Positions 31,944 through 44,068 of a DNA stretch of 64,000 bases are shown piece by piece. The stretch is from a phage. The DNA is taken from sequence record PZ242158.1. One strand, 5' to 3'. The stretch's first letter is position 1. The number at the start of each line of letters is the position of its first letter. The translations under genes were made by a program, and so were the position numbers. Under the pieces are notes generated by a model. That model did no database searches. It saw only the letters and a list, made by a program, of their open reading frames with translations, and was not told the origin of the DNA.

Positions 31944-31970
31944 GCCCTGCCCGAAAGGGTGGGGCTTTTT
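31944..31970 (+). terminator. intrinsic terminator (copy 1 of a duplicated hairpin)
   Basis: GCCCTGCCC-gaaa-GGGTGGGGC + TTTTT; the same 22-nt hairpin recurs at 43605. Confidence 0.6.
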
Positions 31971-31988
31971 GCATTAGGAGACAGCAAA

Positions 31989-32753
31989 TTGAAATTCATC
32001 TACAAAGAACACTACCACAAAGGTGTTGTGTGGAGTCTATTTGACGGGTCTGGTGGTGCAGTTATTGACTGGGCGAAAGCTGGGTACCTGTGCCTGTGCT
32101 TTAATGCAGAAGGTGCTGACCACGGCAGTTATGCAGAGGTGATAACCGATCATCCTAACATTCACTATGTGGATTATTGGATTGACCCATGGTTCCCTCA
32201 GGAAACTTTTTGCATGTATCCAGCTCCAGACTTTATTCTTGCATTTCCTCCGTGCACGCATTTAGCGGTATCAGGTGCTGCACATTTTAAGAAAAAGCTG
32301 GCTAAGGATCCTTTGATCCAAATTAATGCTGTAAAGGATGCTCGGGTTGCGGAAGAGTTGGGAGAGATTTACGATTGCCCGTGGCATGTAGAGAATCCTG
32401 TAGGGGTTATGTCCACACTGTGGCGAAAACCTGATTACCGTTTTCATCCTTCGGATTATGGTGGGTATTTACCGGAGGATGATGTAAACCCCTGGTTTCC
32501 TGAATTTATAGCTCCACGTGATGCCTATCCAAAAATAACTTGCGGCTGGATAGGCAATGGATTTATAATCCCGGCCACAAAACCTGTCCCGCAAATAGTT
32601 GACGCGGTTAGCGGGTATTCCATGCAACACGCCAAGCTGGGTGGAAAGAGTGCAAGAACGAAGATGATCCGAAGCCTCACGCCACGTGGCTGGGCAAAAG
32701 CCGTATTCTTAGCAAACGAGCCTGTAGTAAGGAGCAGAATTAATGGGAAGTAA
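31989..32753 (+). CDS. C5-cytosine DNA methyltransferase-like protein (small, atypical)
   Basis: Motif I-like LFDGSGG, motif IV-like AFPPCTHLAVSG (Pro-Cys), motif VI-like VENPVG; start placed at TTG 31989 after AGGAGA; the tracked GTG 31959 lies inside the terminator. Confidence 0.4.
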   Translation: MKFIYKEHYHKGVVWSLFDGSGGAVIDWAKAGYLCLCFNAEGADHGSYAEVITDHPNIHYVDYWIDPWFPQETFCMYPAPDFILAFPPCTHLAVSGAAHFKKKLAKDPLIQINAVKDARVAEELGEIYDCPWHVENPVGVMSTLWRKPDYRFHPSDYGGYLPEDDVNPWFPEFIAPRDAYPKITCGWIGNGFIIPATKPVPQIVDAVSGYSMQHAKLGGKSARTKMIRSLTPRGWAKAVFLANEPVVRSRINGK

Positions 32754-34821
32754 ATTTATGGCATCTGCATACAACCGTTTCGGTGAGCCAAACCCGAAAG
32801 CAACTAAGTATAAAAGTGGGGGGAGTGTGAAACGAGACTATCGTGATGAAAAAGAGGTTGAAACTGTAGAGACTGTTTTAGAAAATACTAAAATCGTCCC
32901 TGTCCCACAACAAAATATCGGTCTGATGGCTGCACAATATTTTGGTGTGCGATCAGCATTATCCCAAGAAGATGGTGTGACAGTCACTGCAACATATTTC
33001 CCATATTACGACCGCTACGGAAATCTGTCCGGTTTCAAAAAGCGTGACTGGACGATTCCTAAAGAGCAAAGAGGCCATTTCTCCGTTGTTGGCATAGTAA
33101 AGGCTAACTCTCAGATGTTTGGTCAAAAGCTGTGTGCATCTTCCAACAACCGTAAGCAGATTAACGTTTGTGAGGGAGAAGGTGATGTTATTGCAGCATG
33201 GCAGGCTGCATATCAGATACAAGTAAAAGGGATTCTCACCAACGCTAAAGCCCCGGCAAAGGTGAAACAGTGGGCTAAAGAGGTCCAGGACGGGATCGAT
33301 GCAGTTATCAACGGTGGCGATCTGGCAGGAAAACCATGCCTGCCTTTTGTTGGAATTAACTGTGGATGTGCAAACGCAGTAGATACTTTTGCAAACAATG
33401 AGAAGTTTATCCGTAGCTATGGAACAGTTGTGCTGGCAATGGATAACGATGCAGCTAACGAGGTAGAGAAGCAAAAACACGTCATTAAAGGTGTTGAGGC
33501 CACGCACAATATCGCAGCATTTTTGATGGCTGATAACGTTTACCACGTAGAATACCCTGGTGAAGTAAATGACCCTGACGGGGTAAAAGATATCCGTGAC
33601 ATGCTGAAGGCTAAAAAGCTGGAAGATATTGTCAACATGTTCCGGCACCCTGTTAAATATGTGCCTGATGCTGTGTCGGATTTAGAAGACTTCTCTATCG
33701 AGTCTTTGCGGAAAAAGACTTCCAACGGGGTAGATATCAGCGCAGAGTTCCCAAAACTGCAAAAAATGCTAAAAGGCTTGCACAAAGGGACACTCGTAAT
33801 GCTTACAGGGCCATCAGGGGGCGGTAAAACAACTGTAGCTAAAAAACTGGAACATTGTATTGCAAGATACCTAATGGACCCGACATGCCCGAAGGCTGAT
33901 GACTATGAAGAGGATGATCGTCTATGTATGATCCATCTTGAGGAGGACCCAGAGGAAGCAATTAACTCCTTGTATGCAAACCAGTTAGGGTTTGATGTTA
34001 AAGAGTTTGTTGAAGATCCTAGCCAGTTTTTAACTGATCAAGAACACGCAGAGATTCACCAATCATGGGCAAAAGCTGGAAAAATCAAAGTGTTCAAACA
34101 TTTCGGATCTATTCCGGTGGACGAGTTGATTACCAAGCTTAAGCAAATGGTTTGCCTGTACCATTGCCGTTATATTGTGCTGGATCACCTGTCCATGGTA
34201 ATTTCAGGGCTTAATGTTAAGGATGAGCGAAAAGAACTGGACATGGCTATGACTCAGCTGGCTGCGTTTTGTAAGCAGTTTAACGTGTTTATCTTGGTGA
34301 TCGCTCACCTCAAACGTACAGAGATTGTGCCTCCTAAGGACAAGGATGGTAACCCGTTACCTTTCTGGTATCCTGTGCGAAAAGAGAATTTGCGAGGATC
34401 GGCGGGGCTTGAACAGTTGAGTTGGGTAGTCATAGGTGTCGAGGCCGAAGAAATGGTGGATCGTTCTCGTGGACGTGTCCGTCTGGTAGGTCTTAAAAAC
34501 CGTCCAGCAAAAACTCTAGGTATTGCTGACACTTTGGTTATGGACCCGCACACAGGTAAGTTCCATGATGCCAGTAATTGGTACTGGGACAAAGAAATGC
34601 AAATGTTTACAGACGGAGAAGGTGGGGAGGTTGTTTGGAGACCTCAGGCTATGTTTGAGGATCAGGAGCATGCAGTTGTAGAAACACCTATGGGCAAGGT
34701 TGTGGCTGATAAGGTTGTAACTCCTACTGTTAAGCCTGTTGACACGCAGGAAGACCTCCAGTACGATGATCCATCCTCTGACCCGGTCCCTGGTTTTGAG
34801 GATGATGAAACGCCTTTTTAA
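32743..34821 (+). CDS. bifunctional DNA primase-helicase (TOPRIM + DnaB-family, T7 gp4-like)
   Basis: TOPRIM VCEGEGDVIAA and VVLAMDNDAANE; helicase Walker A LTGPSGGGKTT, Walker B-like IVLDHLS, H4-like RGSAGLEQLS; acidic C-terminus ending DDETPF. Confidence 0.8.
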   Translation: MGSKFMASAYNRFGEPNPKATKYKSGGSVKRDYRDEKEVETVETVLENTKIVPVPQQNIGLMAAQYFGVRSALSQEDGVTVTATYFPYYDRYGNLSGFKKRDWTIPKEQRGHFSVVGIVKANSQMFGQKLCASSNNRKQINVCEGEGDVIAAWQAAYQIQVKGILTNAKAPAKVKQWAKEVQDGIDAVINGGDLAGKPCLPFVGINCGCANAVDTFANNEKFIRSYGTVVLAMDNDAANEVEKQKHVIKGVEATHNIAAFLMADNVYHVEYPGEVNDPDGVKDIRDMLKAKKLEDIVNMFRHPVKYVPDAVSDLEDFSIESLRKKTSNGVDISAEFPKLQKMLKGLHKGTLVMLTGPSGGGKTTVAKKLEHCIARYLMDPTCPKADDYEEDDRLCMIHLEEDPEEAINSLYANQLGFDVKEFVEDPSQFLTDQEHAEIHQSWAKAGKIKVFKHFGSIPVDELITKLKQMVCLYHCRYIVLDHLSMVISGLNVKDERKELDMAMTQLAAFCKQFNVFILVIAHLKRTEIVPPKDKDGNPLPFWYPVRKENLRGSAGLEQLSWVVIGVEAEEMVDRSRGRVRLVGLKNRPAKTLGIADTLVMDPHTGKFHDASNWYWDKEMQMFTDGEGGEVVWRPQAMFEDQEHAVVETPMGKVVADKVVTPTVKPVDTQEDLQYDDPSSDPVPGFEDDETPF

Positions 34822-34879
34822 TGTTTAACAAAGAGTGGGAGGGGTAGTACAACCGCCTCCCCTTTAAGGAGAACTGTAT

Positions 34880-37303
34880 ATGAGCATGTGGTCGTTCGAT
34901 TTTGAGTCATCCGGTTTGCTGGAAGACCCAGATCTTTATTATCACTGCGGCCTGTTTAAAGAGCTGAATAAGAACCGTTTTATGCTGTTCCTTCCTCTGA
35001 ATGACCGCACACACTACTCCGAGGAGGATATAGAGAAGGCCAAGAACTTTATTCTGGCAAAGAAAACTCTTTATAAGGATTTTGAAGTTCGCATAGCAGA
35101 TTTTTCGGAGTTGGAAGGTTGGCTTACAGGAAATTCCGACTGGTCACCAACAGCTTTGAACTGCCATAACTGCTACAGTTATGACTTTATGCTGATGGAG
35201 AGATTATCCGGTATTCATTTTGATATGTTCCGTGATCCTAAATGCATGGGGACTATCAACGACCACCAGGTTAACCTGTTTGATACGTTGGCTATGAGCC
35301 GAATCTTGTGGCCTGATCGCCCTTTACCAAAAGGTTGTCCGGACGCTGTATTCAACCCGGTTACTAAGAAAATGCAACCTGTTGGTCCTCACGGCCTTAT
35401 GGCATGGGGCTACGCCCTTGGTAACCAGAAAGTTCAAATTGATGACTGGCGCGATCTTCCGCTGTGGAAATATGTGGATCGTGTGTTCGAGGACGTTATC
35501 ATCCAGGAGTTGCTCTGGAAAGAGTTGGTAGCGGAATCAAAAGGTGTATTCTACGGCAAATCTGACATGCAGAACTTTATGTATGACCCTGCCAAAGAGA
35601 AGCCTAAAGGATTCAAGAAGATTACCTGGAAGAATGCATTACGCCGAGGCATGCTGCAGCATTTCCTGATGGAGCTGCAGGCTCGACAGGGTGTGTATTT
35701 CGACATAGATGGGGCTATTGCTTTACGTGACCGCTGCGATGCGTGGATGAAAGAGATCGCTGATCGTGTTGAACCACAACTTCCTTTAAAAGAGTTATCA
35801 ATGTCTCAGCGGCCTAAGTTCCCTGAAAAGCCGTTTAACCAGGATGGGACAATCTCCAATAATGGTTGGAAATGGTTAAAAGACAAGCTTGGCTACCCTG
35901 TGGACATGAGTGCTTTAGAATTCAAAGCTCCTCCTAAGCGAGCATTTACCTCCACAGGAGATGTCAGTAAGATGGGGATAAAATGGTGTGAAGAGATGGG
36001 CTGTAAAGACCCTGACAAGATGGCGGATTTCTTGAGGGGCTATATCAAGGGCACCTCCACACCACAACCTTTACCTAAAGAGCTAATGGATCAGGCAATA
36101 AGTGATCTACAGCAGAAGCGAATGCCTGACTGCAAGATACCTATGAAAATCAGTAATCAGGACGATATTAAGCGATACCTGATCAGTGCTGGTTGGCTTC
36201 CGACAATGTGGAGAACTAAGGATGTAACTAAAGACAGCAAGAAGAAAGCTCTACCTGATGCAGATGTTGATGCACGAGTGTATGCATATATGGACGAGCT
36301 TTTAGAGTCAGAGTATTGTGACCTAATTATCAACTTCTGGAACAAAACTGATGCTAAGTTCCAGACAACCGTGCACAAGTTCCGAAGCTTTCCTAACTCC
36401 GAAAGGATTAAAAAGGAAGTATTCGGGAAAATACGTAGAAAAGCTAGGGCACTTATTACTTCTCCGCAACTGAAAGATACGTTTGGACACCTATGCCCGA
36501 ATCTTGAAAAATTGAACGGAGAGATGGCTAAAGATATCGTCTTGTGGTTATCATTGCGAAACCGCAGATCGGTCCTTGATCCAATCAAGGAGGATAAGGT
36601 TGATACTGGTCTTCTTAATCACCCACGTTTGAAGATTGACCATAAGCTTCCTGCTAAAAGTTCTGGATTAACAAACACTTCCCGACAGAAACACAGTATT
36701 TGTGCAAACATGCCTAAACCATCTCCTAAAGTGGTTATGGGTAAAGAGATGCGTAGTCTGTGGGGTGTTCCTCCAGGATACTTTGAGATCGGTATTGACG
36801 GGTCCAACTTAGAGCAGCTTATCGGGGCTTGGGGTGCCTTTGAGTTCGACAACGGCCTGTATTACGATGTTGTAAGTAACGGGGACGCACACCAAAACAA
36901 TGCTGAGGCATATACAAAAGTAGCAGGTAGAGAGGTGTCTCGTAACGACGGTAAACCTATCACGTATGGGGTTATGTATGGGGCACAAAAAGATAAAGTT
37001 GCAGATATGCTGGACATCTCTCCAGAGTTGGGACAAAGGGTAATCGATGCACTCTGGGATGCCAACCCTGGTCTTAAGGGGCGTAAAGAAGATCTGGAGA
37101 AATTCTGGGAAGCAACGGGTAAGAAGTTTATCTACTCTTTTGATGGTCATGCTATCTGGACCCGATCTAAACACTCTTTACTTAATGCATACCAACAAAA
37201 TGGCGGCGCATCGTTGTGTGACTTAGTTGGGATACTCATGCACCATCAAATGGTGAAGCGTGGGTGGTACGATGAAGGTGTTCGTCGTATTATCTATTAC
37301 CAT
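34880..37303 (+). CDS. family A DNA polymerase, exon 1 (3'-5' exonuclease plus polymerase motifs A and B)
   Basis: Exo I FDFESSG; motif A EIGIDGSNLEQL; motif B RNDGKPITYGVMYG; frame ends ...RIIYYH just before motif C, then K and stop inside the intron. Confidence 0.8.
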
Positions 37304-38145
37304 AAATAACATTGTGGCTTCGTGCAGTGATGCACGTCGAAAACCTCTTTAATTGACGGGAAGGCTAAGTTGACTTTTACACCTAAACATGGTAAAAGCT
37401 CAATATGCTAATCCGCAGCGAAGACTAAAGGGGTGTAGTTAAAATGGCTAGATCAGTTGATTATCACGGATATACCGTGTTTGATGATGGAACAATACCT
37501 TTATCGAAACGTGATCATACAACAATGTTTTGTTTTGATAATGGTCGAGGTTACCTTTGCGTAACCATGTTCATCGAGGGGAAGCAGTGCACAAAAGGTG
37601 TCCACCACTTGGTTGCTGAATGCTTTGTATCAAACCCTGATCCTGAAAGGCTCACATGGGTGAACCATAAGGACGGAAACAAATACAACAATGCATACTG
37701 GAACCTTGAATGGACCACCCCTGGTGGAAATATCAAACACGCTTATGATAATGACCTCAGAGTAAGGCCAGTCGGTGAGTATAATGCCAACGCTGTACTG
37801 ACCGAGGATGAGGTAACGGAGATTTGCGAACTGTTACAGAGTGGTCTACGACAATGCGAGATTAGGGATCTTGGGTATCCTTATGAGACGGTCAGAGCCA
37901 TAAAGCAAAGAAGACAGTGGAAACATATCTCTAAAAACTACACCTGGTAGTAACGTTCAGAGACTATCGAAAGCATAGCGCCAACATAAATTGGTGCGAA
38001 GAAGCGAGTAGAGTAGGCCAGCAAGTGCGGTCGAAATGGGAGGTGCCTTGGTAACAAGGTAGTGAGATAGTCCGATCCATACAGGAAACTGTATGGCTGT
38101 GCACGTAATGGTGCGGGGTAGCTTAACGACCTACCTGAACTATTG
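37304..38145 (+). mobile_element. group I self-splicing intron (842 nt) carrying an HNH homing endonuclease
   Basis: Conserved P (aattgacgggaagg, 37341), Q (aatccgcagc, 37400), R (gttcagagacta, 37955) and S (agatagtcc, 38065) elements; 5' exon ends in U, intron ends in G at 38145; splice joins YYH to DEYQLQV. Confidence 0.75.
37444..37950 (+). CDS. intron-encoded HNH homing endonuclease
   Basis: VNHKDGNKYNNAYWNLEWTT (HNH_3-type motif); own SD AAAGGGG; lies between the Q and R elements. Confidence 0.7.
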   Translation: MARSVDYHGYTVFDDGTIPLSKRDHTTMFCFDNGRGYLCVTMFIEGKQCTKGVHHLVAECFVSNPDPERLTWVNHKDGNKYNNAYWNLEWTTPGGNIKHAYDNDLRVRPVGEYNANAVLTEDEVTEICELLQSGLRQCEIRDLGYPYETVRAIKQRRQWKHISKNYTW

Positions 38146-38499
38146 GATGAGTACCAACTTCAGGTCCCTGACACACCTAAGTATAAGACTGTGTACACCT
38201 TCGACACAATTGAAGAATTGGAAGCATTTAAGGCAGAGCAGGAGGCCAAACTTCATGTGTTCGACGGTCATAAGTACAAAAAGGCACGCAAGGATGAAAA
38301 CGGAAACGAAGTGGTTGACAGAGACGGAAACACGGTGTACGATCCTATCCTGAACGATGACGGAAAGCTTGAACTTATCTGGAGCCCTGTGGGTGAAATG
38401 GTGGTGCATTGCTTCTGGCAAGCTTCTAAAATGATGGGAGTCCCGTTCCAGATCACAGGTGAATACTTGTGTGGTCGTAACTGGGGTGATTGTCACTAA
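38146..38499 (+). CDS. family A DNA polymerase, exon 2 (motif C and C-terminus)
   Basis: Frame opens at 38122, no ATG/SD; begins DEYQLQV (completes the HDE motif C) and ends GRNWGDCH with the C-terminal His conserved in Pol A enzymes. Confidence 0.6.
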   Translation, partial: DEYQLQVPDTPKYKTVYTFDTIEELEAFKAEQEAKLHVFDGHKYKKARKDENGNEVVDRDGNTVYDPILNDDGKLELIWSPVGEMVVHCFWQASKMMGVPFQITGEYLCGRNWGDCH

Positions 38500-38866
38500 T
38501 GTAAACTATCAACACATGGAAGTGTTGTTGAGCAAAGAGGAGACTTTTATGGTAGTAGAACCAACAAAAACATTTACATCCATGACTATCCCTGTTATTA
38601 TGCAGGTGGAGTGTGTTCAGGTATCTCAAGTGTGGCCAGGCACTAAAATCCCAACAGGGCCTGATTTCTTTCAGGTTGGGAAAGTGTACAATGTCTGGAA
38701 AGCACCAGATTGTCACCCTTTCATTAAAGAGAAGGCACCAAATTGCTACCCTTTCATCAAAGATGACCGTGGAATGCTGTGGTATCTTGGAAATGACTTG
38801 ACACTGCACCTTGGGAATGCTATTATTGCAGTATTCAGACTTAACAAGAAGGAGACTGATCAATGA
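38459..38866 (+). CDS. hypothetical protein
   Basis: 135-aa ORF overlapping the end of polymerase exon 2; start uncertain. Confidence 0.35.
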   Translation: MNTCVVVTGVIVTNVNYQHMEVLLSKEETFMVVEPTKTFTSMTIPVIMQVECVQVSQVWPGTKIPTGPDFFQVGKVYNVWKAPDCHPFIKEKAPNCYPFIKDDRGMLWYLGNDLTLHLGNAIIAVFRLNKKETDQ

Positions 38867-39090
38867 CGACTTTGGTTAAAGCTACCTTTGTAGAAGAAAA
38901 GATGACAGACCTGTCATTCTTTAAAGAAGGAAAGACCTACGAGGTTTATTACGATAAAGCTCGTGCAAACAAAATGATTAAAGACGAGGAAGGGGTTGCC
39001 TGGTATATCTCTCACCTGGCAAACGGTGAGTATCATATCTACGGAACCACTTTGCTTGCCAAGTTTGTAGTTGTTGAAGAGGACCTATGA
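38863..39090 (+). CDS. hypothetical protein
   Basis: 75-aa ORF, 4-nt overlap. Confidence 0.4.
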   Translation: MTTLVKATFVEEKMTDLSFFKEGKTYEVYYDKARANKMIKDEEGVAWYISHLANGEYHIYGTTLLAKFVVVEEDL

Positions 39091-39281
39091 AAGTAAAGTA
39101 TCTGGCTGAGGGTATGAGTAGGTATTTCACCCTTGGTGAAGAATATTGGCCCTTTACAAGCAACGGCGATGTCTACGTGAAAGATAATTTCGGCACGCCG
39201 TGGTTTCTGCACCCTAATGGGCTGGGATACTCCATTTACTGCGGTGCAGTGAACAACACAACACTTGCAGAGTTTGTATAG
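39087..39281 (+). CDS. hypothetical protein
   Basis: 64-aa ORF, 4-nt overlap. Confidence 0.4.
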   Translation: MKVKYLAEGMSRYFTLGEEYWPFTSNGDVYVKDNFGTPWFLHPNGLGYSIYCGAVNNTTLAEFV

Positions 39282-39291
39282 AGGAGGTAGA

Positions 39292-39663
39292 ATGTTAGTA
39301 AAAGGTACCCACACAGTCAAACAACGTATTGAAGTTGAGATTGATGACTGCGAGCTGAAGCATATTTTACGGTCATGCTCCAACGTTTTGCTCCTTAGCA
39401 TTCTTCAGGAGCGAGCAGAGAACGAGTTCTTAAATGCACTGGCAGGCCGTCCTGGTGACTTCTGTGTGCGTAAGCGTGGTGACAACAAGTCATGGCTGTG
39501 GGAAATCGATGCCGACTGGGATTACCACAAAAATGAGGGTATAGATGAGCCTATTCGTGAATTGACAGACAAAGAGGTTCAGACGTACAATGAAGTTTGT
39601 CATTGGGCAACACGCCAACAAATCTACCTCGACCCTGTGTGGCTGATTGAAAATAGCCATTGA
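39292..39663 (+). CDS. hypothetical protein
   Basis: Start at ATG 39292 after GAGGAGG. Confidence 0.4.
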   Translation: MLVKGTHTVKQRIEVEIDDCELKHILRSCSNVLLLSILQERAENEFLNALAGRPGDFCVRKRGDNKSWLWEIDADWDYHKNEGIDEPIRELTDKEVQTYNEVCHWATRQQIYLDPVWLIENSH

Positions 39664-39739
39664 CAAGAAGTAAGATTAGATATAAGATGCTTCACACAAA
39701 CAGAGCGTTGATTTTTAAATAACTAAGGAGACTGCCAAG

Positions 39740-39994
39740 ATGAAAATTACTTTGAAGCCAGAATGCGTTGCAAATGACCGAGCTTTTAAAGATTGCACAG
39801 TCGGTGCAATTTATGAAGCAGAGTTTTGTGAGAACCCTCTGGTAAAAGCCCTTCTGGAAGAAGGGGCCCCTTTATCACAAGAAGAGATTGATGAGCTGGA
39901 AAACTCAGCACAGTGCCTTACCTTTAAAGATGACGAAGGAGACTCTGTCTGGTGCACTGTTAATGAAGTAGTTTTTGTAAAACCTGAACATTAA
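39740..39994 (+). CDS. hypothetical protein
   Basis: 84-aa ORF, SD AAGGAG. Confidence 0.4.
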   Translation: MKITLKPECVANDRAFKDCTVGAIYEAEFCENPLVKALLEEGAPLSQEEIDELENSAQCLTFKDDEGDSVWCTVNEVVFVKPEH

Positions 39995-40057
39995 TACTTG
40001 ACAACAGTGATGGGGCCTAATATAATGGCCCTATCAAAACGAAAGGGGACCACAGCA

Positions 40058-40330
40058 ATGACCAAACAATATCAACGAATTAAAGCCAAGGTTAAGCCAG
40101 ACTATCTGGAAAAGGACTCTGCTTTTCGGGACTGCACAGCTGACAAAGTTTACACAGGGGCCGTCCTGCTGAACGATGAATTTGAAGTATATGTTCTGGG
40201 TAAAGAGGCCACTATTAAGGACGACCAAGGAGATTATGTTTGCTGCACCACACGTGAGCTAGAAATCTTAGAATACTTCGGTGAAATCTTCACCTCTCTT
40301 GATGATTACTTAGACGACGAGGAAGCGTGA
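40058..40330 (+). CDS. hypothetical protein
   Basis: Start at ATG 40058 after AAAGGGGA; resembles the 39740 product (KDC/RDCT...EVYVLGKEA pattern), possible paralog. Confidence 0.35.
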   Translation: MTKQYQRIKAKVKPDYLEKDSAFRDCTADKVYTGAVLLNDEFEVYVLGKEATIKDDQGDYVCCTTRELEILEYFGEIFTSLDDYLDDEEA

Positions 40331-40719
40331 TGAAAAATATTTGGGATATTGATATCTTTGAAGCCTCTAAGCTTGACGGTGCTGATGGAGTGATTATGGT
40401 GTCTGATGGCAAGGCAACACTAACTTCAGGAGATATCATCTATGCCTTGGACGAGCTGGCGCTTCTGAAATCTACCGGTAACACTTTAGAGGAGCGTCTT
40501 CAAGGCTTCGCCTTCAAAGAAGGCACAAATACAGCCATGATGTGCACCACACGGACAGTTCAGGTGGGTAACGGTGTCTATATGATCATTGCTGTGTGTC
40601 CTAAATTCAGCAACGTCAACAAAGATGATGCTGACGCTGTCAACGATGTGGTTGTTCTCTTCGTGGGTGACGCTATGGCAGACCTGATGAATGCAGGAGA
40701 AGCGGCAAATGAAGACTGA
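40327..40719 (+). CDS. hypothetical protein
   Basis: 130-aa ORF. Confidence 0.4.
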   Translation: MMKNIWDIDIFEASKLDGADGVIMVSDGKATLTSGDIIYALDELALLKSTGNTLEERLQGFAFKEGTNTAMMCTTRTVQVGNGVYMIIAVCPKFSNVNKDDADAVNDVVVLFVGDAMADLMNAGEAANED

Positions 40720-41011
40720 AAACATTACCCCAGCAGGGTTCTTAAAAGTATACCGTGAACTGCTATATACTACAGAGGACAGTGTTCTAGAGTATCCAGA
40801 ATATCTTTTGCTGTATAAGTATCTACAGGAAGCTGGTGAAAATCTGCCAGTTAGTGCAGAAGGCGGTCCGAACTGGGTATACAGCGCATGGAGAAAGGTT
40901 GGCATTCTCCCAGATCCAGGTAAAGATATGGTAGTTTGGCAGCTTATCAACAACATCGGGATTCCAATCTTTGATGAAGCTGTTAAAATCTATTTTGAAC
41001 TTGACGATTAA
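40709..41011 (+). CDS. hypothetical protein
   Basis: Start at ATG 40709 after GCAGGAGAAG. Confidence 0.35.
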   Translation: MKTENITPAGFLKVYRELLYTTEDSVLEYPEYLLLYKYLQEAGENLPVSAEGGPNWVYSAWRKVGILPDPGKDMVVWQLINNIGIPIFDEAVKIYFELDD

Positions 41012-41028
41012 TATCAGGAGACCTTAAG

Positions 41029-41274
41029 ATGACTGAAGTAGTTGCTCGCGCAGGACAGAAAGTACGTTGTGTTGAAGTAGGTTTTGGTGGCAAAGGGTGT
41101 CAAAACTTGACTCAAGGTAAGGAATACGCTGTTATTTCTGGTGGTGGCGACGAAAGTATTGTGTTCGAGGGCCACATCCTGGATGCTGAAAACTTTGAAA
41201 TCTTTGACGACGATGGGGATCCGATCACCTGCCTGCTGGACGGGAATTGGGGAACTTTTGAAGTGATTGGCTAA
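41029..41274 (+). CDS. hypothetical protein
   Basis: 81-aa ORF, SD CAGGAGA. Confidence 0.4.
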   Translation: MTEVVARAGQKVRCVEVGFGGKGCQNLTQGKEYAVISGGGDESIVFEGHILDAENFEIFDDDGDPITCLLDGNWGTFEVIG

Positions 41275-41357
41275 CAAATATCTATTGTAATTTACAGAAG
41301 GGGATGCTAAAATAGTGTCTCCTTCTATGTTGTTCAAATAAAATCGGAGATTCCATA

Positions 41358-41723
41358 ATGGAACAAATGAACGATCAAGCGTCGGTTGCGATGAACGAGC
41401 AAGAACAACCTCAAGAATTTTTCTTAGGGTTAAGTAAAGATCAAGTGTCTCTTCTGCTAGTGCTTTCTTCTTTCATGGGAAGACTTCAGGAGCTTACACA
41501 ACAGCCAGAGGCTGAACAATTATTTCAGGCTCTGCGCGAAGAAGAAAAATATCGTCGTTTGGACTATGCCTTAGGTTGGGTAGCTCAACAACGAGATATG
41601 CTGATGGCTCTCTCTGGGACCACAAGTTTTGCAATGGGCCTGTTGGCTCAAGTTCAGGACAAATTAATTCAGGCAGGGTTTGCACACACGGCGAACACTA
41701 ACGAAGAACAAGGAGACAAATAA
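41358..41723 (+). CDS. hypothetical protein
   Basis: 121-aa ORF, SD ATCGGAGA. Confidence 0.4.
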   Translation: MEQMNDQASVAMNEQEQPQEFFLGLSKDQVSLLLVLSSFMGRLQELTQQPEAEQLFQALREEEKYRRLDYALGWVAQQRDMLMALSGTTSFAMGLLAQVQDKLIQAGFAHTANTNEEQGDK

Positions 41724-42994
41724 TGAGCGTTATTCAACAATTCGCTAACCCGATGAATCCGCGTGAAACTGTTTTACTGGCTCACGGCATGATTAAACGT
41801 GTCAGCATCAAACCTATCAAAGGTGCTGATCCTACAACAGGTATTAAAACCACTGTGTGGCAAGGTAAGAAAATTGAATCCAGCCACACCATCTCTTTAC
41901 TGATTTCTGAACTGGATTCCTCTGATAACCTGCTTCAAGGTGGTGAAGAAGTTTGGATCAGTATGGGTGATAAGCTGCTTAAACCTGGTCATCAAGACTC
42001 TGTCTCTGTTAAAATTGATGACAAGTGGGAAACCGTAACGCCGGGATGGATCGTAAATATCCCTTTGAAGGCAAACGAGCATAACGGTAAGACCTATTAC
42101 AAAGGCTCACTGGCTAAGATGGTCAAACTGGGTGCAGGAGAGGCTCCAGCAGCGACTCAGCAGCAAAAACAGCAACAAGGTGCACAATCACAAGGTCAGA
42201 AGCAGAAACCCCAGCAGAATGCCAATCAGGACGTTTTACGCATCTATGGGGATGTGACTCAGATTGTTGGCAACGTGGTTACTGTAAATGACCACAAGAT
42301 TGGCGAAGGTGCTATGGTTGTAACTGATGAGCAGCTTAAAGACCTGGTGGTAGGTGGTCGTGTTGCAGCCATTGTTGACAAAGACACCGGAAACATTATC
42401 AGTGGTTTCAAAGCCTATCCACCTAAGGCAGAGAACGGCACTCAAGGCTCTGGTGGCAAGCGTAAATCCTCTTACGACCCTATTGGTGTAGAGACGGGGC
42501 ATAGCATCAATGCTTTGCAGATCATCCTGGATCGCGGGTTTAAGGTGGATGACCCACTAAGCGTGGCTAAAACACTGCACGTAGTCACCATTGAGCTTAA
42601 GAAAGAGTATGCTCAAGCCACCAACCGAACTGAAGATGAAGTAGGTGCCAGTGTCGGTAATGCGGTGTTGAACGCTTGTCGCCGTATTGACAAGAAAACG
42701 AAAGTTGATGATTTTGCAGCGGCAATTACTGCAGAAGCAAAAGATGTCTTGACTAATCTGGCTGAGCCGTTGTACGATTGGATCAAGAACGGTGCTGAGT
42801 CCACTGACCATCAAGAACCTCAAGCTGCCAAACAGGAAGCCGCTCCACAGCAAAACACTGTAGACGCTCCTCCTGTAAATGATGAGGAAGATGACCCGAT
42901 GGGTCAGAATCCGGCGCAGTATGACTTCTGTGATGACATACCTTTCGCTCCGGTAGGTTTGCAATATGGCAAAAGTAGAATCCACGCATTGTAA
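41723..42994 (+). CDS. hypothetical protein, possible single-stranded DNA-binding protein
   Basis: 423 aa; central Gln-rich linker [20 protein letters not shown]; acidic tail with ...YDFCDDIPF; in replication module; assignment speculative. Confidence 0.3.
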
Positions 42995-43589
42995 GAGGTG
43001 CATCAAGTGCGGAGAGGTGAAAGACCTCTCCGAGTTCTACAAACACCCAAAGATGTCTGACGGTCATCTTAATAAGTGCAAAGAGTGTTGCAAGAAGGCC
43101 AGCAGGGAGGCTGACCAATTTTCCCACGACTCTTCAGAAAAAGGTGTAATACGCGTGCTGTACAAGGCTCAAAAGTGCAACAGCAAGCAAAGAGGTCACC
43201 CGCCTCCGACTTACACCAAAAAAGAGTTTAAGGAGTGGCTATACCTAAACGGTTACAAAGAGTTGTATGATCAGTGGGTAGCCAGCGGATACGACAAAAG
43301 GAAAAAGCCTTCTTGTGACAGGATAGATGATTTCAAAGGGTACTCTTTTGATAATATCCGTTTAACGACTTGGGGAGAAAATAAAGACAAGCAGACAGAG
43401 GATATTCTGTTGCATAGAAGCACCAGCGGTAGACGGTGTAAAAATGTAAGGAGGCTGGACATGAATGGCAACGTTCTTAAAGAATGGGTATCCCACAATT
43501 CTTGTAGAAGAGAAACCGGAATATGTGTTGATTACTACATTCATGAAAAAATTCCAGCCCCAGATGGATACCTCTATGAATACTTTTAG
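42966..43589 (+). CDS. free-standing HNH endonuclease with N-terminal zinc ribbon
   Basis: Cys4 cluster CKRCIKCG...CKECCK; HNH motif [23 protein letters not shown]. Confidence 0.6.
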
Positions 43590-43604
43590 CACCTAACTAA
43601 CATA

Positions 43605-43632
43605 GCCCTGCCCGAAAGGGTGGGGCATTTTT
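43605..43632 (+). terminator. intrinsic terminator (copy 2 of the duplicated hairpin)
   Basis: GCCCTGCCC-gaaa-GGGTGGGGC + ATTTTT; identical hairpin to 31944. Confidence 0.6.
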
Positions 43633-43651
43633 GTATAAGGAGATCTGAAAA

Positions 43652-44068
43652 ATGACATTAGAAGATATCATTGTTAAACCTGAGAACTATGACCAATACA
43701 ACCTGTCAACTCAATCTGTAGACTTTGGATGCGCCACGGTCAGTGCGTGGCTGGTTAACGGAAAAGAGCTGGATAAATGCTTAGAAGCTCACATGTCTAT
43801 TAACAAGTTTCTGGATGAAAATACTCACTGGCTTGAGGGTGCAGGCGTATATGCTTCATGGTTGGAGAGTATGGGATTCGACTACCAATCTGAAGAGGGG
43901 TGGTGGAGCTATTTAGCTATCTGCCCAGAGACGCTGCAATGCTTCATGAAATATTCTGAAGATTTAGAGTATCGCGCTGTGGTTGACAGTGCTATTGCCC
44001 GTTATAGCCGTAAACCTTTTTCCCACGACATTAAAACTGTGGAAGAATTTGTTGAAGTTTTCTGTTGA
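43652..44068 (+). CDS. hypothetical protein
   Basis: 138-aa ORF, SD AAGGAGA. Confidence 0.4.
   Translation: MTLEDIIVKPENYDQYNLSTQSVDFGCATVSAWLVNGKELDKCLEAHMSINKFLDENTHWLEGAGVYASWLESMGFDYQSEEGWWSYLAICPETLQCFMKYSEDLEYRAVVDSAIARYSRKPFSHDIKTVEEFVEVFC

What the first reader, a model, noticed from the sequence alone, without database searches (positions are those of the whole stretch)
32743..43589. T7-type replisome signatures: acidic C-terminal Phe tails, and an HNH gene overlapping the end of a putative SSB
The primase-helicase ends ...SDPVPGFEDDETPF, an acidic tail ending in Phe like the polymerase-docking tails of T7 gp4 and gp2.5. The 423-aa ORF 41723..42994 has a Gln-rich linker and an acidic ...YDFCDDIPF motif, but then continues for 15 more residues ([15 protein letters not shown]) into the start of the HNH gene at 42966. 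The HNH gene may have altered the original 3' end of an SSB-like gene.
Basis: inference. Interest (0 to 1): 0.45.

Follow-up and report, generated by a model that had tools for sequence, protein, structure and literature searches.

The report
Homing endonuclease caps an SSB tail
In this rV5-like coliphage a mobile endonuclease gene has landed exactly on the last codon of an SSB-like gene and added a 15-residue "cap" over its DDIPF docking tip; that cap belongs to a conserved, apparently undescribed peptide family found on the same tip in many unrelated phage replication proteins.

Summary
The window is an rV5-like Vequintavirus. The primase-helicase is a T7 gp4 homologue, and its acidic ...D-x-P-F end is kept in nearly all of about 120 homologues.

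The 423-aa protein has an OB fold, two further domains and a disordered acidic tail. The tail tip, DDIPF, matches E. coli SSB-Ct rather than T7.

About 65 of 116 related genomes lack the downstream endonuclease gene. The two HEG-free loci I read (Murica, JLBYU08) encode a 408-aa ortholog that stops right after ...DDDIPF; L059 likewise stops at ...CDDIPF.

Three things go beyond that reading:
- **The cap is a conserved peptide.** AP[IV]GLQY followed by 7-9 residues is under purifying selection in the host-gene frame.
- **It sits on unrelated proteins.** These include canonical SSBs, other ssDNA-binding proteins and primase-helicases, with or without the endonuclease.
- **The endonuclease is site-specific.** This zinc-ribbon, PacI-like ββα-Me family recurs directly after genes ending in ...IPF, so it probably homes on tip-coding DNA.

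The cap's function is unknown. No paper in the library contains the motif.

The parts
32743..34821 (+). T7 gp4-type primase-helicase, 692 aa, uncapped
   Evidence: phrog_239 E 6e-160; DnaB_C and AAA_25; T7 gp4 structures E 4e-16.
34795..34818 (+). Acidic C-terminal tip FEDDETPF of the primase-helicase
   Evidence: Nearly all listed homologues, down to 42% identity, end in an acidic ...x-P-F.
34880..37303 (+). Family A DNA polymerase, exon 1 (ends ...RIIYYH)
   Evidence: phrog_17 and phrog_8888; splice point set by alignment to an intron-less homologue.
37304..38145 (+). Group I intron, 842 nt, interrupting polymerase motif C (YH|DE)
   Evidence: RF00028, 40.5 bits, E 1.8e-7, full-length model match but below the gathering score of 50. 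Removing it gives a 925-aa ORF, the length annotated for JeffSchatz's uninterrupted polymerase. Present or absent among relatives.
37444..37950 (+). HNH_3-type homing endonuclease ORF inside the intron (168 aa)
   Evidence: phrog_59 E 9e-38; weak PF13392 hit.
38146..38499 (+). DNA polymerase exon 2 (DEYQLQV...GRNWGDCH)
   Evidence: phrog_8888 positions 185-295, E 1.6e-58.
41358..41723 (+). Conserved 121-aa gene whose stop overlaps the SSB-like start (ATGA)
   Evidence: phrog_7310. A 113-121-aa gene precedes the SSB-like gene in L005, L007, L008 and L059.
41723..42994 (+). SSB-like protein, 423 aa: OB domain (1-138), Q-rich linker (140-169), small beta domain (171-232), four-helix domain (253-355), acidic tail (360-408), cap (409-423)
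42932..42946 (+). SSB-Ct-like tip D-D-I-P-F, which is the true C-terminus in endonuclease-free relatives
   Evidence: E. coli SSB ends NEPPMDFDDDIPF.
42947..42994 (+). 15-codon cap [15 protein letters not shown] plus stop codon
   Evidence: Absent from HEG-free rV5-like genomes. Conserved on unrelated tip-bearing proteins. pN/pS 0.18 in this frame.
42947..43586 (+). 640-bp inserted cassette (cap plus endonuclease gene); boundaries ambiguous by 3-4 nt because of a repeated (C)TTT
   Evidence: The 2401-nt query spans only 1761 nt in HEG-free records; junction alignments.
42966..43589 (+). Free-standing homing-endonuclease-like gene, 207 aa: Cys4 zinc ribbon, PacI-like ββα-Me domain, NUMOD-like C-terminal region

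Best explanation
The region is the replication module of an rV5-like myophage. Two of its proteins carry a disordered acidic tail ending in -PF: the gp4-type primase-helicase and a three-domain OB-fold SSB-like protein. This is the sequence type of the E. coli SSB C-terminal tip. By analogy with E. coli SSB-Ct and with the T7 gp4 and gp2.5 tails, it is a docking peptide for partner proteins.

In this genome a 640-bp mobile cassette sits exactly at the Phe codon of the SSB-like gene. It removes the stop codon, adds 15 codons (the 'cap', [15 protein letters not shown]) and carries a free-standing endonuclease gene whose ATG lies inside the cap codons.

The endonuclease has an N-terminal Cys4 zinc ribbon and a PacI-like ββα-Me domain. 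Most likely it cuts cassette-free alleles at or near the DNA encoding ...D-I-P-F-stop and is copied in by recombinational repair (intron-less homing). That tip-coding stretch is the only thing its host genes share, so the element and its cap can move between unrelated genes.

The cap is a member of a conserved 14-16-residue family: AP[IV]GLQ[YF], then 3-5 variable residues, a hydrophobic residue, [N/H/Y], [C/A/V/S] and a final hydrophobic residue. It is selected at the peptide level. It turns the terminal Phe into an internal residue, so it must change how the tip is read. My best guess is a removable or conditional mask that remains compatible with tip function.

- **Shown:** the insertion, the presence/absence polymorphism, the recurrence on unrelated genes, the selection on the cap, and the folds.
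- **Inferred:** endonuclease cleavage and its target, docking by the tips, and any cap function.
For: **Insertion**
- 116 rV5-like records match. 51 carry the endonuclease; 32 of those have this cap junction and about 19 have the endonuclease after an intact 408-aa gene. About 65 lack it.
- HEG-free alleles end ...DDDIPF-TAA. The flanks are collinear up to the Phe codon on the left and from TTTTA(A/G) on the right.

**Mobility across genes**
- The same cap with an overlapping homologous endonuclease follows ...ENDTPF of a primase-helicase in L010.
- Cap subtype GKSRIHAL sits on an unrelated 155-aa canonical SSB (L035) at 80% nucleotide identity, with nearly all differences synonymous.
- Four of five arbitrarily chosen homologues of the endonuclease (45-50% identity) lie directly after a gene whose product ends in, or in one case (L075) continues 22 residues past...(D/E)(E/D)IPF: an SSB, a 107-aa protein and an SF2 helicase.

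**Selection on the cap**
- In six loci found by homology to the protein body and not by the cap, codons 1-7 give pS 0.83 and pN 0.15 (ratio 0.18). The other two frames give 0.78 and 2.65.
- In 48 viral loci the codons not fixed by the search pattern have saturated pS (0.8-0.9) with pN 0.19-0.44.
- Capped proteins keep the acidic IPF tip.

**Folds**
- OB fold.
- PacI-like nuclease with invariant D118, Y126 and N139. PacI uses Asp and Asn for the metal and Tyr as general base (PMC4081073).

**Tail function by analogy**
- The last six residues of phage HK620 SSB are needed to stimulate its partner Sak4 (PMC5928155).
- Two paper titles in the reference list of PMC12339929 (those papers were not read) report the T7 gp2.5 C-terminal Phe as essential for strand-displacement synthesis, and its loss as dominant lethal.
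Against: - No cleavage activity, target site or super-Mendelian inheritance has been shown.
- The nuclease lacks the canonical His (an invariant Arg sits in its place), and activity is assumed by analogy with PacI.
- Most capped genes (about 40 of 48 in IMG/VR) have no endonuclease next to them, and 19 rV5-like genomes have the endonuclease without a cap. Cap and endonuclease are therefore separable, and which came first is unresolved.
- AF2 gives no structure for the cap (pLDDT about 30).
- Roughly 65 relatives do well without the cap, so it is dispensable in this lineage.
- ssDNA binding by the 423-aa protein is untested, and it has no Pfam SSB hit.
Confidence: 0.72

Rival explanations
1. 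The 15 extra residues are a neutral read-through scar, left when the endonuclease gene displaced the stop codon. They have no function of their own.
For: - The cap is disordered in the AF2 model.
- HEG-free relatives lack it and are abundant.
- Another member of the endonuclease family is associated with a quite different 22-residue read-through...DEDIPF|SLSIAIPLASLSLYLEWYNLII in L075. Arbitrary extensions therefore do occur.
Against: - The same peptide recurs on unrelated proteins with saturated synonymous divergence and few amino-acid changes. pN/pS is 0.18 in the host frame against 0.78 and 2.65 in the other frames.
- It persists in lineages with no endonuclease: L005, L007, L009 (whose protein cluster has 89 member sequences) and cultured Vibrio phages.
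Confidence: 0.12
2. The cap is an old, functional C-terminal module of some phage SSBs that pre-dates the endonuclease. The endonuclease merely targets the 3' end of tip- or cap-bearing genes and borrowed a start codon from the cap sequence. HEG-free capped genes are then ancestral targets, not deletion products.
For: - In HEG-free capped genes the sequence ends cleanly at the cap's stop codon, followed by a terminator or the next gene.
- In L018 the endonuclease remnant starts 13 nt after the stop codon of a 14-residue cap.
- About 40 of 48 capped loci lack the endonuclease.
Against: - Among 116 rV5-like genomes the cap occurs only together with the endonuclease: 32 with both, none with the cap alone.
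- Among the 120 listed primase-helicases the cap appears in just two clusters, joined exactly at PF, which points to acquisition rather than ancestry.
- This rival concerns deep origin only. It is compatible with the cap having entered this genome together with the endonuclease.
Confidence: 0.3
3. The two -PF tails do not dock on the phage polymerase as in T7. They recruit host SSB-interacting proteins (chi, PriA, RecQ, ExoI and others) by mimicking E. coli SSB-Ct.
For: - Family members carry EPPMDFDDDIPF, identical over 12 residues to E. coli SSB.
- The cap and tip occur across phages and prophages of many Gammaproteobacteria, so a host partner is the simplest common denominator.
Against: - The primase-helicase is a gp4 homologue sitting next to a family A polymerase. 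In T7 both tails contact the polymerase (my own knowledge of the Richardson laboratory's work; only the gp2.5 papers are cited).
- Nothing here tests either partner.
Confidence: 0.4
4. The overlap and extension result from a sequencing frameshift or a mis-called ORF in this assembly.
For: None beyond the unusual 29-nt overlap.
Against: - The identical junction is in 32 independently sequenced phages, including the rV5 reference.
- The 423-aa product falls in a protein cluster (representative P0001, 423 aa with the same ...[21 protein letters not shown] end) that has 533 member sequences.
Confidence: 0.01

Closest known systems
E. coli SSB C-terminal tip (SSB-Ct, ...MDFDDDIPF)
   Same: A disordered, Gln/Pro-rich linker follows an OB fold and ends in an acidic D-D-I-P-F. 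Family members carry EPPMDFDDDIPF, identical to the E. coli sequence.
   Different: - The host protein has no Pfam SSB domain and carries two extra domains.
- In this genome the Phe is internal and followed by 15 residues. From my own knowledge of the ExoI and chi complexes with SSB-Ct, known partners bind the terminal Phe side chain and its free alpha-carboxylate.
T7 gp4 and gp2.5 acidic C-terminal tails ending in Phe
   Same: The replisome is gp4-type helicase-primase plus family A polymerase plus SSB, and both the helicase and the SSB end in an acidic tail with a terminal aromatic residue.
   Different: - From memory, the T7 tails end in -DF and are not similar in sequence to these -PF tips.
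- The polymerase-docking site was not examined here.
- No capped form is known for T7.
Free-standing homing endonucleases of T4-like phages (seg and mob genes; intron-less homing)
   Same: An endonuclease ORF lies between or at the end of conserved genes. It is present or absent at one fixed site in otherwise collinear genomes, and the flanks are more divergent close to the junction.
   Different: - This element re-writes the 3' end of its host gene and overlaps it.
- It recurs after unrelated genes that share only a 5-6-residue motif.
- Cleavage is untested.
PacI restriction endonuclease and I-HmuI (ββα-Me / HNH superfamily)
   Different: - It is not part of a restriction-modification system.
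- An invariant Arg replaces the canonical His.
- There is no Pfam HNH hit.
Genes-in-pieces and altered host genes caused by phage homing endonucleases (for example mobE in Aeromonas phage Aeh1 nrdA; my own knowledge)
   Same: A homing endonuclease changes the coding structure of an essential replication or nucleotide-metabolism gene without killing the phage.
   Different: Here the change is a conserved in-frame C-terminal peptide, not a split gene.

Membership tests
Bacterial/phage SSB (OB-fold ssDNA-binding protein with SSB-Ct tip) | OB-fold DNA-binding domain | tested here: met
Bacterial/phage SSB (OB-fold ssDNA-binding protein with SSB-Ct tip) | Sequence membership in Pfam SSB (PF00436) | tested here: not met
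   No Pfam family at E <= 0.01. The only hit is phrog_4477, of unknown function.
Bacterial/phage SSB (OB-fold ssDNA-binding protein with SSB-Ct tip) | Disordered linker ending in an acidic tip with a C-terminal Phe | tested here: inconclusive
   Met in the HEG-free orthologs, which end ...DDDIPF*. In the window the tip is present but internal, followed by 15 residues.
Bacterial/phage SSB (OB-fold ssDNA-binding protein with SSB-Ct tip) | Binds ssDNA | not testable with these tools
   Needs EMSA or fluorescence titration with purified protein.
T7 gp4-type primase-helicase | RecA-type hexameric helicase domain homologous to gp4 | tested here: met
   phmmer E 4e-16 to gp4 structures 6n7i, 1q57 and 1cr0; DnaB_C; phrog_239 E 6e-160.
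T7 gp4-type primase-helicase | TOPRIM primase domain N-terminal to the helicase | tested here: inconclusive
   Only sub-threshold alignment to the gp4 TOPRIM region, including the EGEGD/EGEID motif. The PHROG profile covers residues 18-678.
T7 gp4-type primase-helicase | Acidic C-terminal tail ending in an aromatic residue | tested here: met
   The window protein ends ...FEDDETPF. The feature is conserved in nearly all listed homologues.
Free-standing homing endonuclease | Presence/absence polymorphism at one site in collinear genomes | tested here: met
   51 records with it and about 65 without, among 116. The boundaries are clean.
Free-standing homing endonuclease | Nuclease fold with catalytic residues | tested here: inconclusive
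Free-standing homing endonuclease | Cleaves the endonuclease-free allele and is inherited preferentially | not testable with these tools
   Needs in vitro cleavage assays and mixed-infection crosses.
Free-standing homing endonuclease | Recurrent association with the same target sequence | tested here: met
   The window, L008, L010, L052 and 4 of 5 arbitrary homologues lie directly after a gene whose product ends in, or continues past...xPF.
Group I intron (DNA polymerase gene) | Match to the Rfam RF00028 covariance model | tested here: inconclusive
   40.5 bits, E 1.8e-7, full-length model match, but below the gathering score of 50.
Group I intron (DNA polymerase gene) | Removal restores the uninterrupted ORF; U ends the 5' exon and G ends the intron | tested here: met
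   Removing 37304-38145 gives a 925-aa polymerase, the length annotated for intron-less JeffSchatz. Exon 1 ends ...CAT and the intron ends ...TTG.

The most novel reading that the evidence does not exclude
The AP[IV]GLQY... cap is a previously unrecognised, horizontally spreading regulatory peptide for SSB-Ct-type tips. It would act as a pro-peptide or conditional mask that controls when the -IPF tip can dock. It is carried between unrelated replication genes by a zinc-ribbon endonuclease family whose homing site is the DNA encoding a short protein-interaction motif rather than one particular gene.
Probability: 0.35. Interest if true: 0.8.

Novelty: new variant of a known kind. Interest (0 to 1): 0.6.

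Why it matters
SSB C-terminal tips organise replication, repair and recombination, and known partners read the terminal Phe and its free carboxylate. A conserved, selected peptide that buries that Phe would matter in three ways if it is functional:
- It would point to an unknown layer of control, such as proteolytic unmasking, an alternative partner, or avoidance of host factors or defences.
- It gives a simple handle for experiments, because capped and uncapped alleles exist in nature in otherwise near-identical phages.
- It bears on annotation. The SSB-like genes are labelled 'hypothetical protein' in all but one of the rV5-like records examined, and capped SSBs in cultured Vibrio phages are deposited simply as SSB genes, cap included.

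The endonuclease side suggests a selfish element that targets a motif-coding sequence shared by unrelated genes. That is an unusual route for ectopic homing.

Tried and rejected
- **Literature.** A full-text search for APIGLQY, IPFAPIGLQY, GLQYPALL and DDIPFAP found no paper. The rV5 genome paper mentions neither the SSB-like gene nor the polymerase intron.
- **Pfam.** It gave nothing for the SSB-like protein or the endonuclease, even at E <= 5.
- **Counting uncapped tips.** The overall fraction of capped tips is therefore unknown.
- **Structure jobs.** I re-ran it with the window protein first.
- **PDB.** A search with tip plus cap matched only the tip, in E. coli SSB and SSB-tagged myosin constructs.
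- **Motif comparisons from memory.** I compared the cap with the beta-clamp-binding motif (QL[SD]LF), the PIP box, the ssrA/ClpX degron, PDZ ligands and intein C-terminal junctions. None fits both the 14- and the 15-residue classes, so I claim none.
- **Cap derived from the endonuclease's own C-terminus.** The window endonuclease ends ...[12 protein letters not shown], which resembles ...[10 protein letters not shown]. Other endonucleases next to caps have unrelated C-termini, so this stays a weak lead.
- **RNA structure or RBS conservation.** This is rejected as the cause of cap conservation, because wobble positions are saturated while the peptide is kept.

Full report
**What the window is.** A megablast of 41300-43700 finds 116 phage records at 90-99% identity. 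Nearly all are Escherichia rV5-like myophages of the genus Vequintavirus, including the rV5 reference. The finding covers their replication module:
- a gp4-type primase-helicase (32743-34821);
- a family A DNA polymerase (34880-38499, interrupted);
- a run of small ORFs;
- a 121-aa gene (41358-41723);
- the 423-aa ORF (41723-42994);
- a 207-aa ORF (42966-43589).

**Check of the observation.** The primase-helicase ends ...SDPVPGFEDDETPF. The 423-aa protein ends ...YDFCDDIPF followed by [15 protein letters not shown]. The downstream ORF starts 29 nt before that stop codon. The junction is identical or nearly so in 32 independent records, so it is not an assembly error.

**The two tailed proteins.**
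- *Primase-helicase.* It matches T7 gp4 crystal and cryo-EM chains at E 4e-16 and phrog_239 at E 6e-160. Among the 120 listed homologues, down to 42% identity in Vibrio phages, almost all end in an acidic stretch followed by x-P-F: DNDTPF, DSDSPF, DEDCPF, DIDEPF. The tail is therefore a conserved functional element.
- *The tip sequence.* Homologues end in DDDIPF, DESIPF or DDSIPF, and several carry EPPMDFDDDIPF. That is the E. coli SSB C-terminus residue for residue (PDB 1eqq). Both tails are -PF tips of the E. coli SSB-Ct type. The resemblance to T7 is one of architecture and logic, not of sequence.

**The insertion.** Three alleles coexist among the 116 records.
- *No endonuclease (about 65 records).* These lack 640 bp. 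In Murica and JLBYU08 the SSB-like gene is 408 codons and ends ...YVFDDDIPF-TAA.
- *Endonuclease without cap (about 19 records, for example WalterGehring).* A 192-aa version of the endonuclease starts 8 nt after an intact ...DDSIPF-TGA.
- *The window's arrangement (32 records, including rV5).* Cap plus overlapping endonuclease.

The junction alignments add detail. Collinearity stops right after the Phe codon on the left. It resumes at TTTTAG-CACCTAACTAAC on the right, against TTTTAA-CAT(T/C)TAGTTAAC in empty alleles. The endonuclease ORF therefore appears to terminate on the host gene's original Phe and stop codons. One HEG-free allele (L059) has the window-type left flank (DFCDDIPF*), so the extra divergence just upstream of the junction is allelic and not necessarily made by the element.

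**The extension is a conserved module.** Distant members of the SSB-like family (34-85% identity) carry the same extension: [60 protein letters not shown] and AYAGLQYATHAIHCLY.
- *Capped without an endonuclease.* In L007 and in L005/L006 the stop codon is followed directly by a terminator hairpin and convergent genes.
- *Capped with the overlapping endonuclease.* L008 has this arrangement.
- *Capped primase-helicases.* Two clusters end ...ENDTPF|APIGLQYANHAIYVL and ...DDDTPF|APIGLQYAKHAIYVI. The first (L010) is overlapped by a homologous endonuclease. The second (L009, a cluster of 89 sequences) keeps only a few codons of the endonuclease start.
- *Viral contigs.* A degenerate DNA pattern for PF-AP[IVM]GLQY finds 48 loci in IMG/VR. 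Nearly all are 3' ends of short canonical SSBs or other ssDNA-binding or helical proteins with tails such as ...YNEPPMDFDDDIPF. The tip is followed by APIGLQY plus [38 protein letters not shown] and similar.
- *Bacterial genomes.* The same pattern finds eight true cases in Gammaproteobacteria: Vibrio, Pseudoalteromonas, Oceanisphaera, Providencia and Glaciecola.
- *Cultured phages.* Vibrio phages such as Valp1 and 1.106.O have capped SSBs, while related phages stop at the tip.
- *Literature.* No paper in the searchable library contains the motif.

**Selection on the cap.** I used six loci ascertained through the body of the protein, not through the cap. For the first seven cap codons, which lie upstream of the endonuclease ATG, pS is 0.83 (saturated) and pN is 0.15, a ratio of 0.18 in the host-gene frame. 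The same DNA read in the other two frames gives 0.78 and 2.65. In the 48 pattern-ascertained loci, the codons not fixed by the pattern also have saturated pS (0.8-0.9) with pN 0.19-0.44, and they keep a C-terminal pattern of hydrophobic, [N/H/Y], [C/A/V/S], hydrophobic. Conservation therefore acts on the peptide and not on an RNA structure, a ribosome-binding site or a DNA target. Capped proteins also keep the acidic IPF tip, although only P-F was imposed by the search. This argues that the tip still matters when capped.

**The endonuclease.** The 207-aa protein has no Pfam hit even at E <= 5 and belongs to phrog_1035, 'endonuclease VII'.
- *Conserved residues.* An alignment of 29 homologues shows four invariant Cys (a zinc ribbon) and the motif P-S-x-D-R-x-D...Y...N...N, with no invariant His.
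- *Catalysis.* PacI is a ββα-Me enzyme with Cys4 sites in which Asp and Asn hold the metal and a Tyr replaces the usual His as general base (PMC4081073). Invariant D118, Y126 and N139 fit that arrangement. I did not inspect the superposition residue by residue.
- *DNA-binding modules.* Some homologues carry NUMOD-like domains.
- *Domain shuffling.* The N-terminal zinc ribbon (about 45 aa) is also found fused to a classical HNH domain in the endonucleases next to capped genes in L010, L043, L053 and L055. In L018 it survives as a 45-aa remnant. The ribbon is thus the part that travels with the site.
- *Neighbours.* I looked up the neighbours of five arbitrarily chosen homologues (37-50% identity). 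Four sit directly after a gene with an ...IPF tip: a Proteus prophage SSB (...DWDDQEIPF), a 107-aa Vibrio phage protein (...DFDTEIPF) and an SF2 helicase (...DEDIPF followed by a different 22-residue read-through). The crAss-like case does not.
- *Conclusion.* Together with the window, L008, L010 and L052, this is strong circumstantial evidence that the family homes on DNA encoding the tip and its stop codon.

**Most likely mechanism.**
- *Shown.* A cassette of cap plus endonuclease is inserted at the Phe codon of a tip-bearing gene. The cassette or its parts occur at the same position in unrelated genes. One cap subtype (GKSRIHAL) is shared at 80% nucleotide identity, with almost only synonymous differences, between this three-domain protein and a 155-aa canonical SSB.
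- *Inferred.* The endonuclease cuts empty alleles near ...CCNTTTTAA, and repair from a cassette-bearing genome copies it in. Short homology in the tip-coding DNA sets the left junction at P-F, which explains the ectopic moves into primase-helicase and helicase genes.
- *Cap function.* The cap converts the terminal Phe into an internal residue. The tip stays conserved in capped lineages, including primase-helicases where it is conserved across the family. The cap must therefore be compatible with tip function. I favour a removable or conditional mask, with low confidence.
- *Deep origin.* Whether the cap pre-dates the endonuclease is unresolved. Most capped genes have no endonuclease nearby, and endonucleases occur without caps.

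**Also in the region.** The polymerase gene is split by an 842-nt group I intron (37304-38145) that carries a separate HNH_3-type endonuclease ORF (37444-37950). The Rfam match is full-length but below the gathering score (40.5 against 50 bits, E 1.8e-7). Removing the intron joins ...RIIYYH to DEYQLQV... and gives a 925-aa polymerase, the length annotated for the uninterrupted gene of phage JeffSchatz. The intron is itself polymorphic among relatives: 33 records have it in full, and others have a shorter insert or none.

**Verdict.**
- *Observation:* confirmed.
- *Interpretation:* partly supported. The altered 3' end and the SSB-like nature hold. 'T7-type' holds only by analogy. The extension is a conserved mobile peptide and not an accident.
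- *Novelty:* free-standing homing endonucleases and SSB tips are known kinds. The conserved cap and a homing family tied to a motif-coding sequence appear to be undescribed.

Noticed in passing
window 37304-38145 (intron), 37444-37950 (ORF): The family A DNA polymerase gene is split at motif C (YH|DE) by an 842-nt group I intron carrying an HNH_3-type endonuclease ORF. Splicing gives a 925-aa polymerase. Among relatives, 33 records have the full intron, rV5 itself has a shorter insert (535-nt span), and others have none (259-nt span).
   Followed up: yes
relatives of window 32743-34821 (proteins P0062-P0064, P0103-P0151): Many primase-helicase homologues are 975-1025 aa instead of about 670-690 aa. 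BLASTP query coverage is only 52-81%, consistent with an intein-sized insertion. The window's copy is uninterrupted.
   Followed up: no
L075:641-3118: An SF2 helicase ends ...DEDIPF followed by a different 22-residue extension (SLSIAIPLASLSLYLEWYNLII). A member of the same endonuclease family starts 24 nt later. This looks like an independent case of tip read-through.
   Followed up: partly
window 43548-43589 versus 42932-42967: The endonuclease's own C-terminus (...[13 protein letters not shown]) resembles tip plus cap (...[11 protein letters not shown]). Its last Phe and stop codons align with the host gene's original TTT TAA. Other cap-adjacent endonucleases do not share this ending, so its meaning is unclear.
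   Followed up: partly
window 34813-34840, compared with L002:3142-3170: The DNA just after the stop codon is similar in the two tip genes. The primase-helicase has CCTTTTTAATGTTTAAC and the HEG-free SSB-like allele has CCATTTTAACATTTAGTTAAC. This could be part of a shared endonuclease target, or chance in AT-rich sequence.
   Followed up: no
window 42479-42787 (residues 253-355); L014, L018: By eye, the four-helix domain of the SSB-like protein (motifs GVETGHxINA and [15 protein letters not shown]) resembles motifs (e.g. GNTVGNAVINCAN) in small proteins of other phages that lack the OB domain but carry the same tip and cap. Its function is unknown.
   Followed up: no
window 41358-41723: A 121-aa gene (phrog_7310) overlaps the SSB-like start by ATGA. 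A gene of similar size precedes the SSB-like gene in distant relatives. One GenBank record (JLBYU08) labels both genes 'putative single-stranded DNA-binding protein'.
   Followed up: no
phage records MG0656xx: Sixteen records named 'Campylobacter phage', with Campylobacter jejuni as stated host for 15 (Campylobacter for the other), are about 97% identical to E. coli rV5-like phages across this region. The host labels look doubtful.
   Followed up: no
window 31959-32753: A DNA methyltransferase-like gene (phrog_757, no Pfam hit) ends 11 nt inside the start of the primase-helicase ORF.
   Followed up: no
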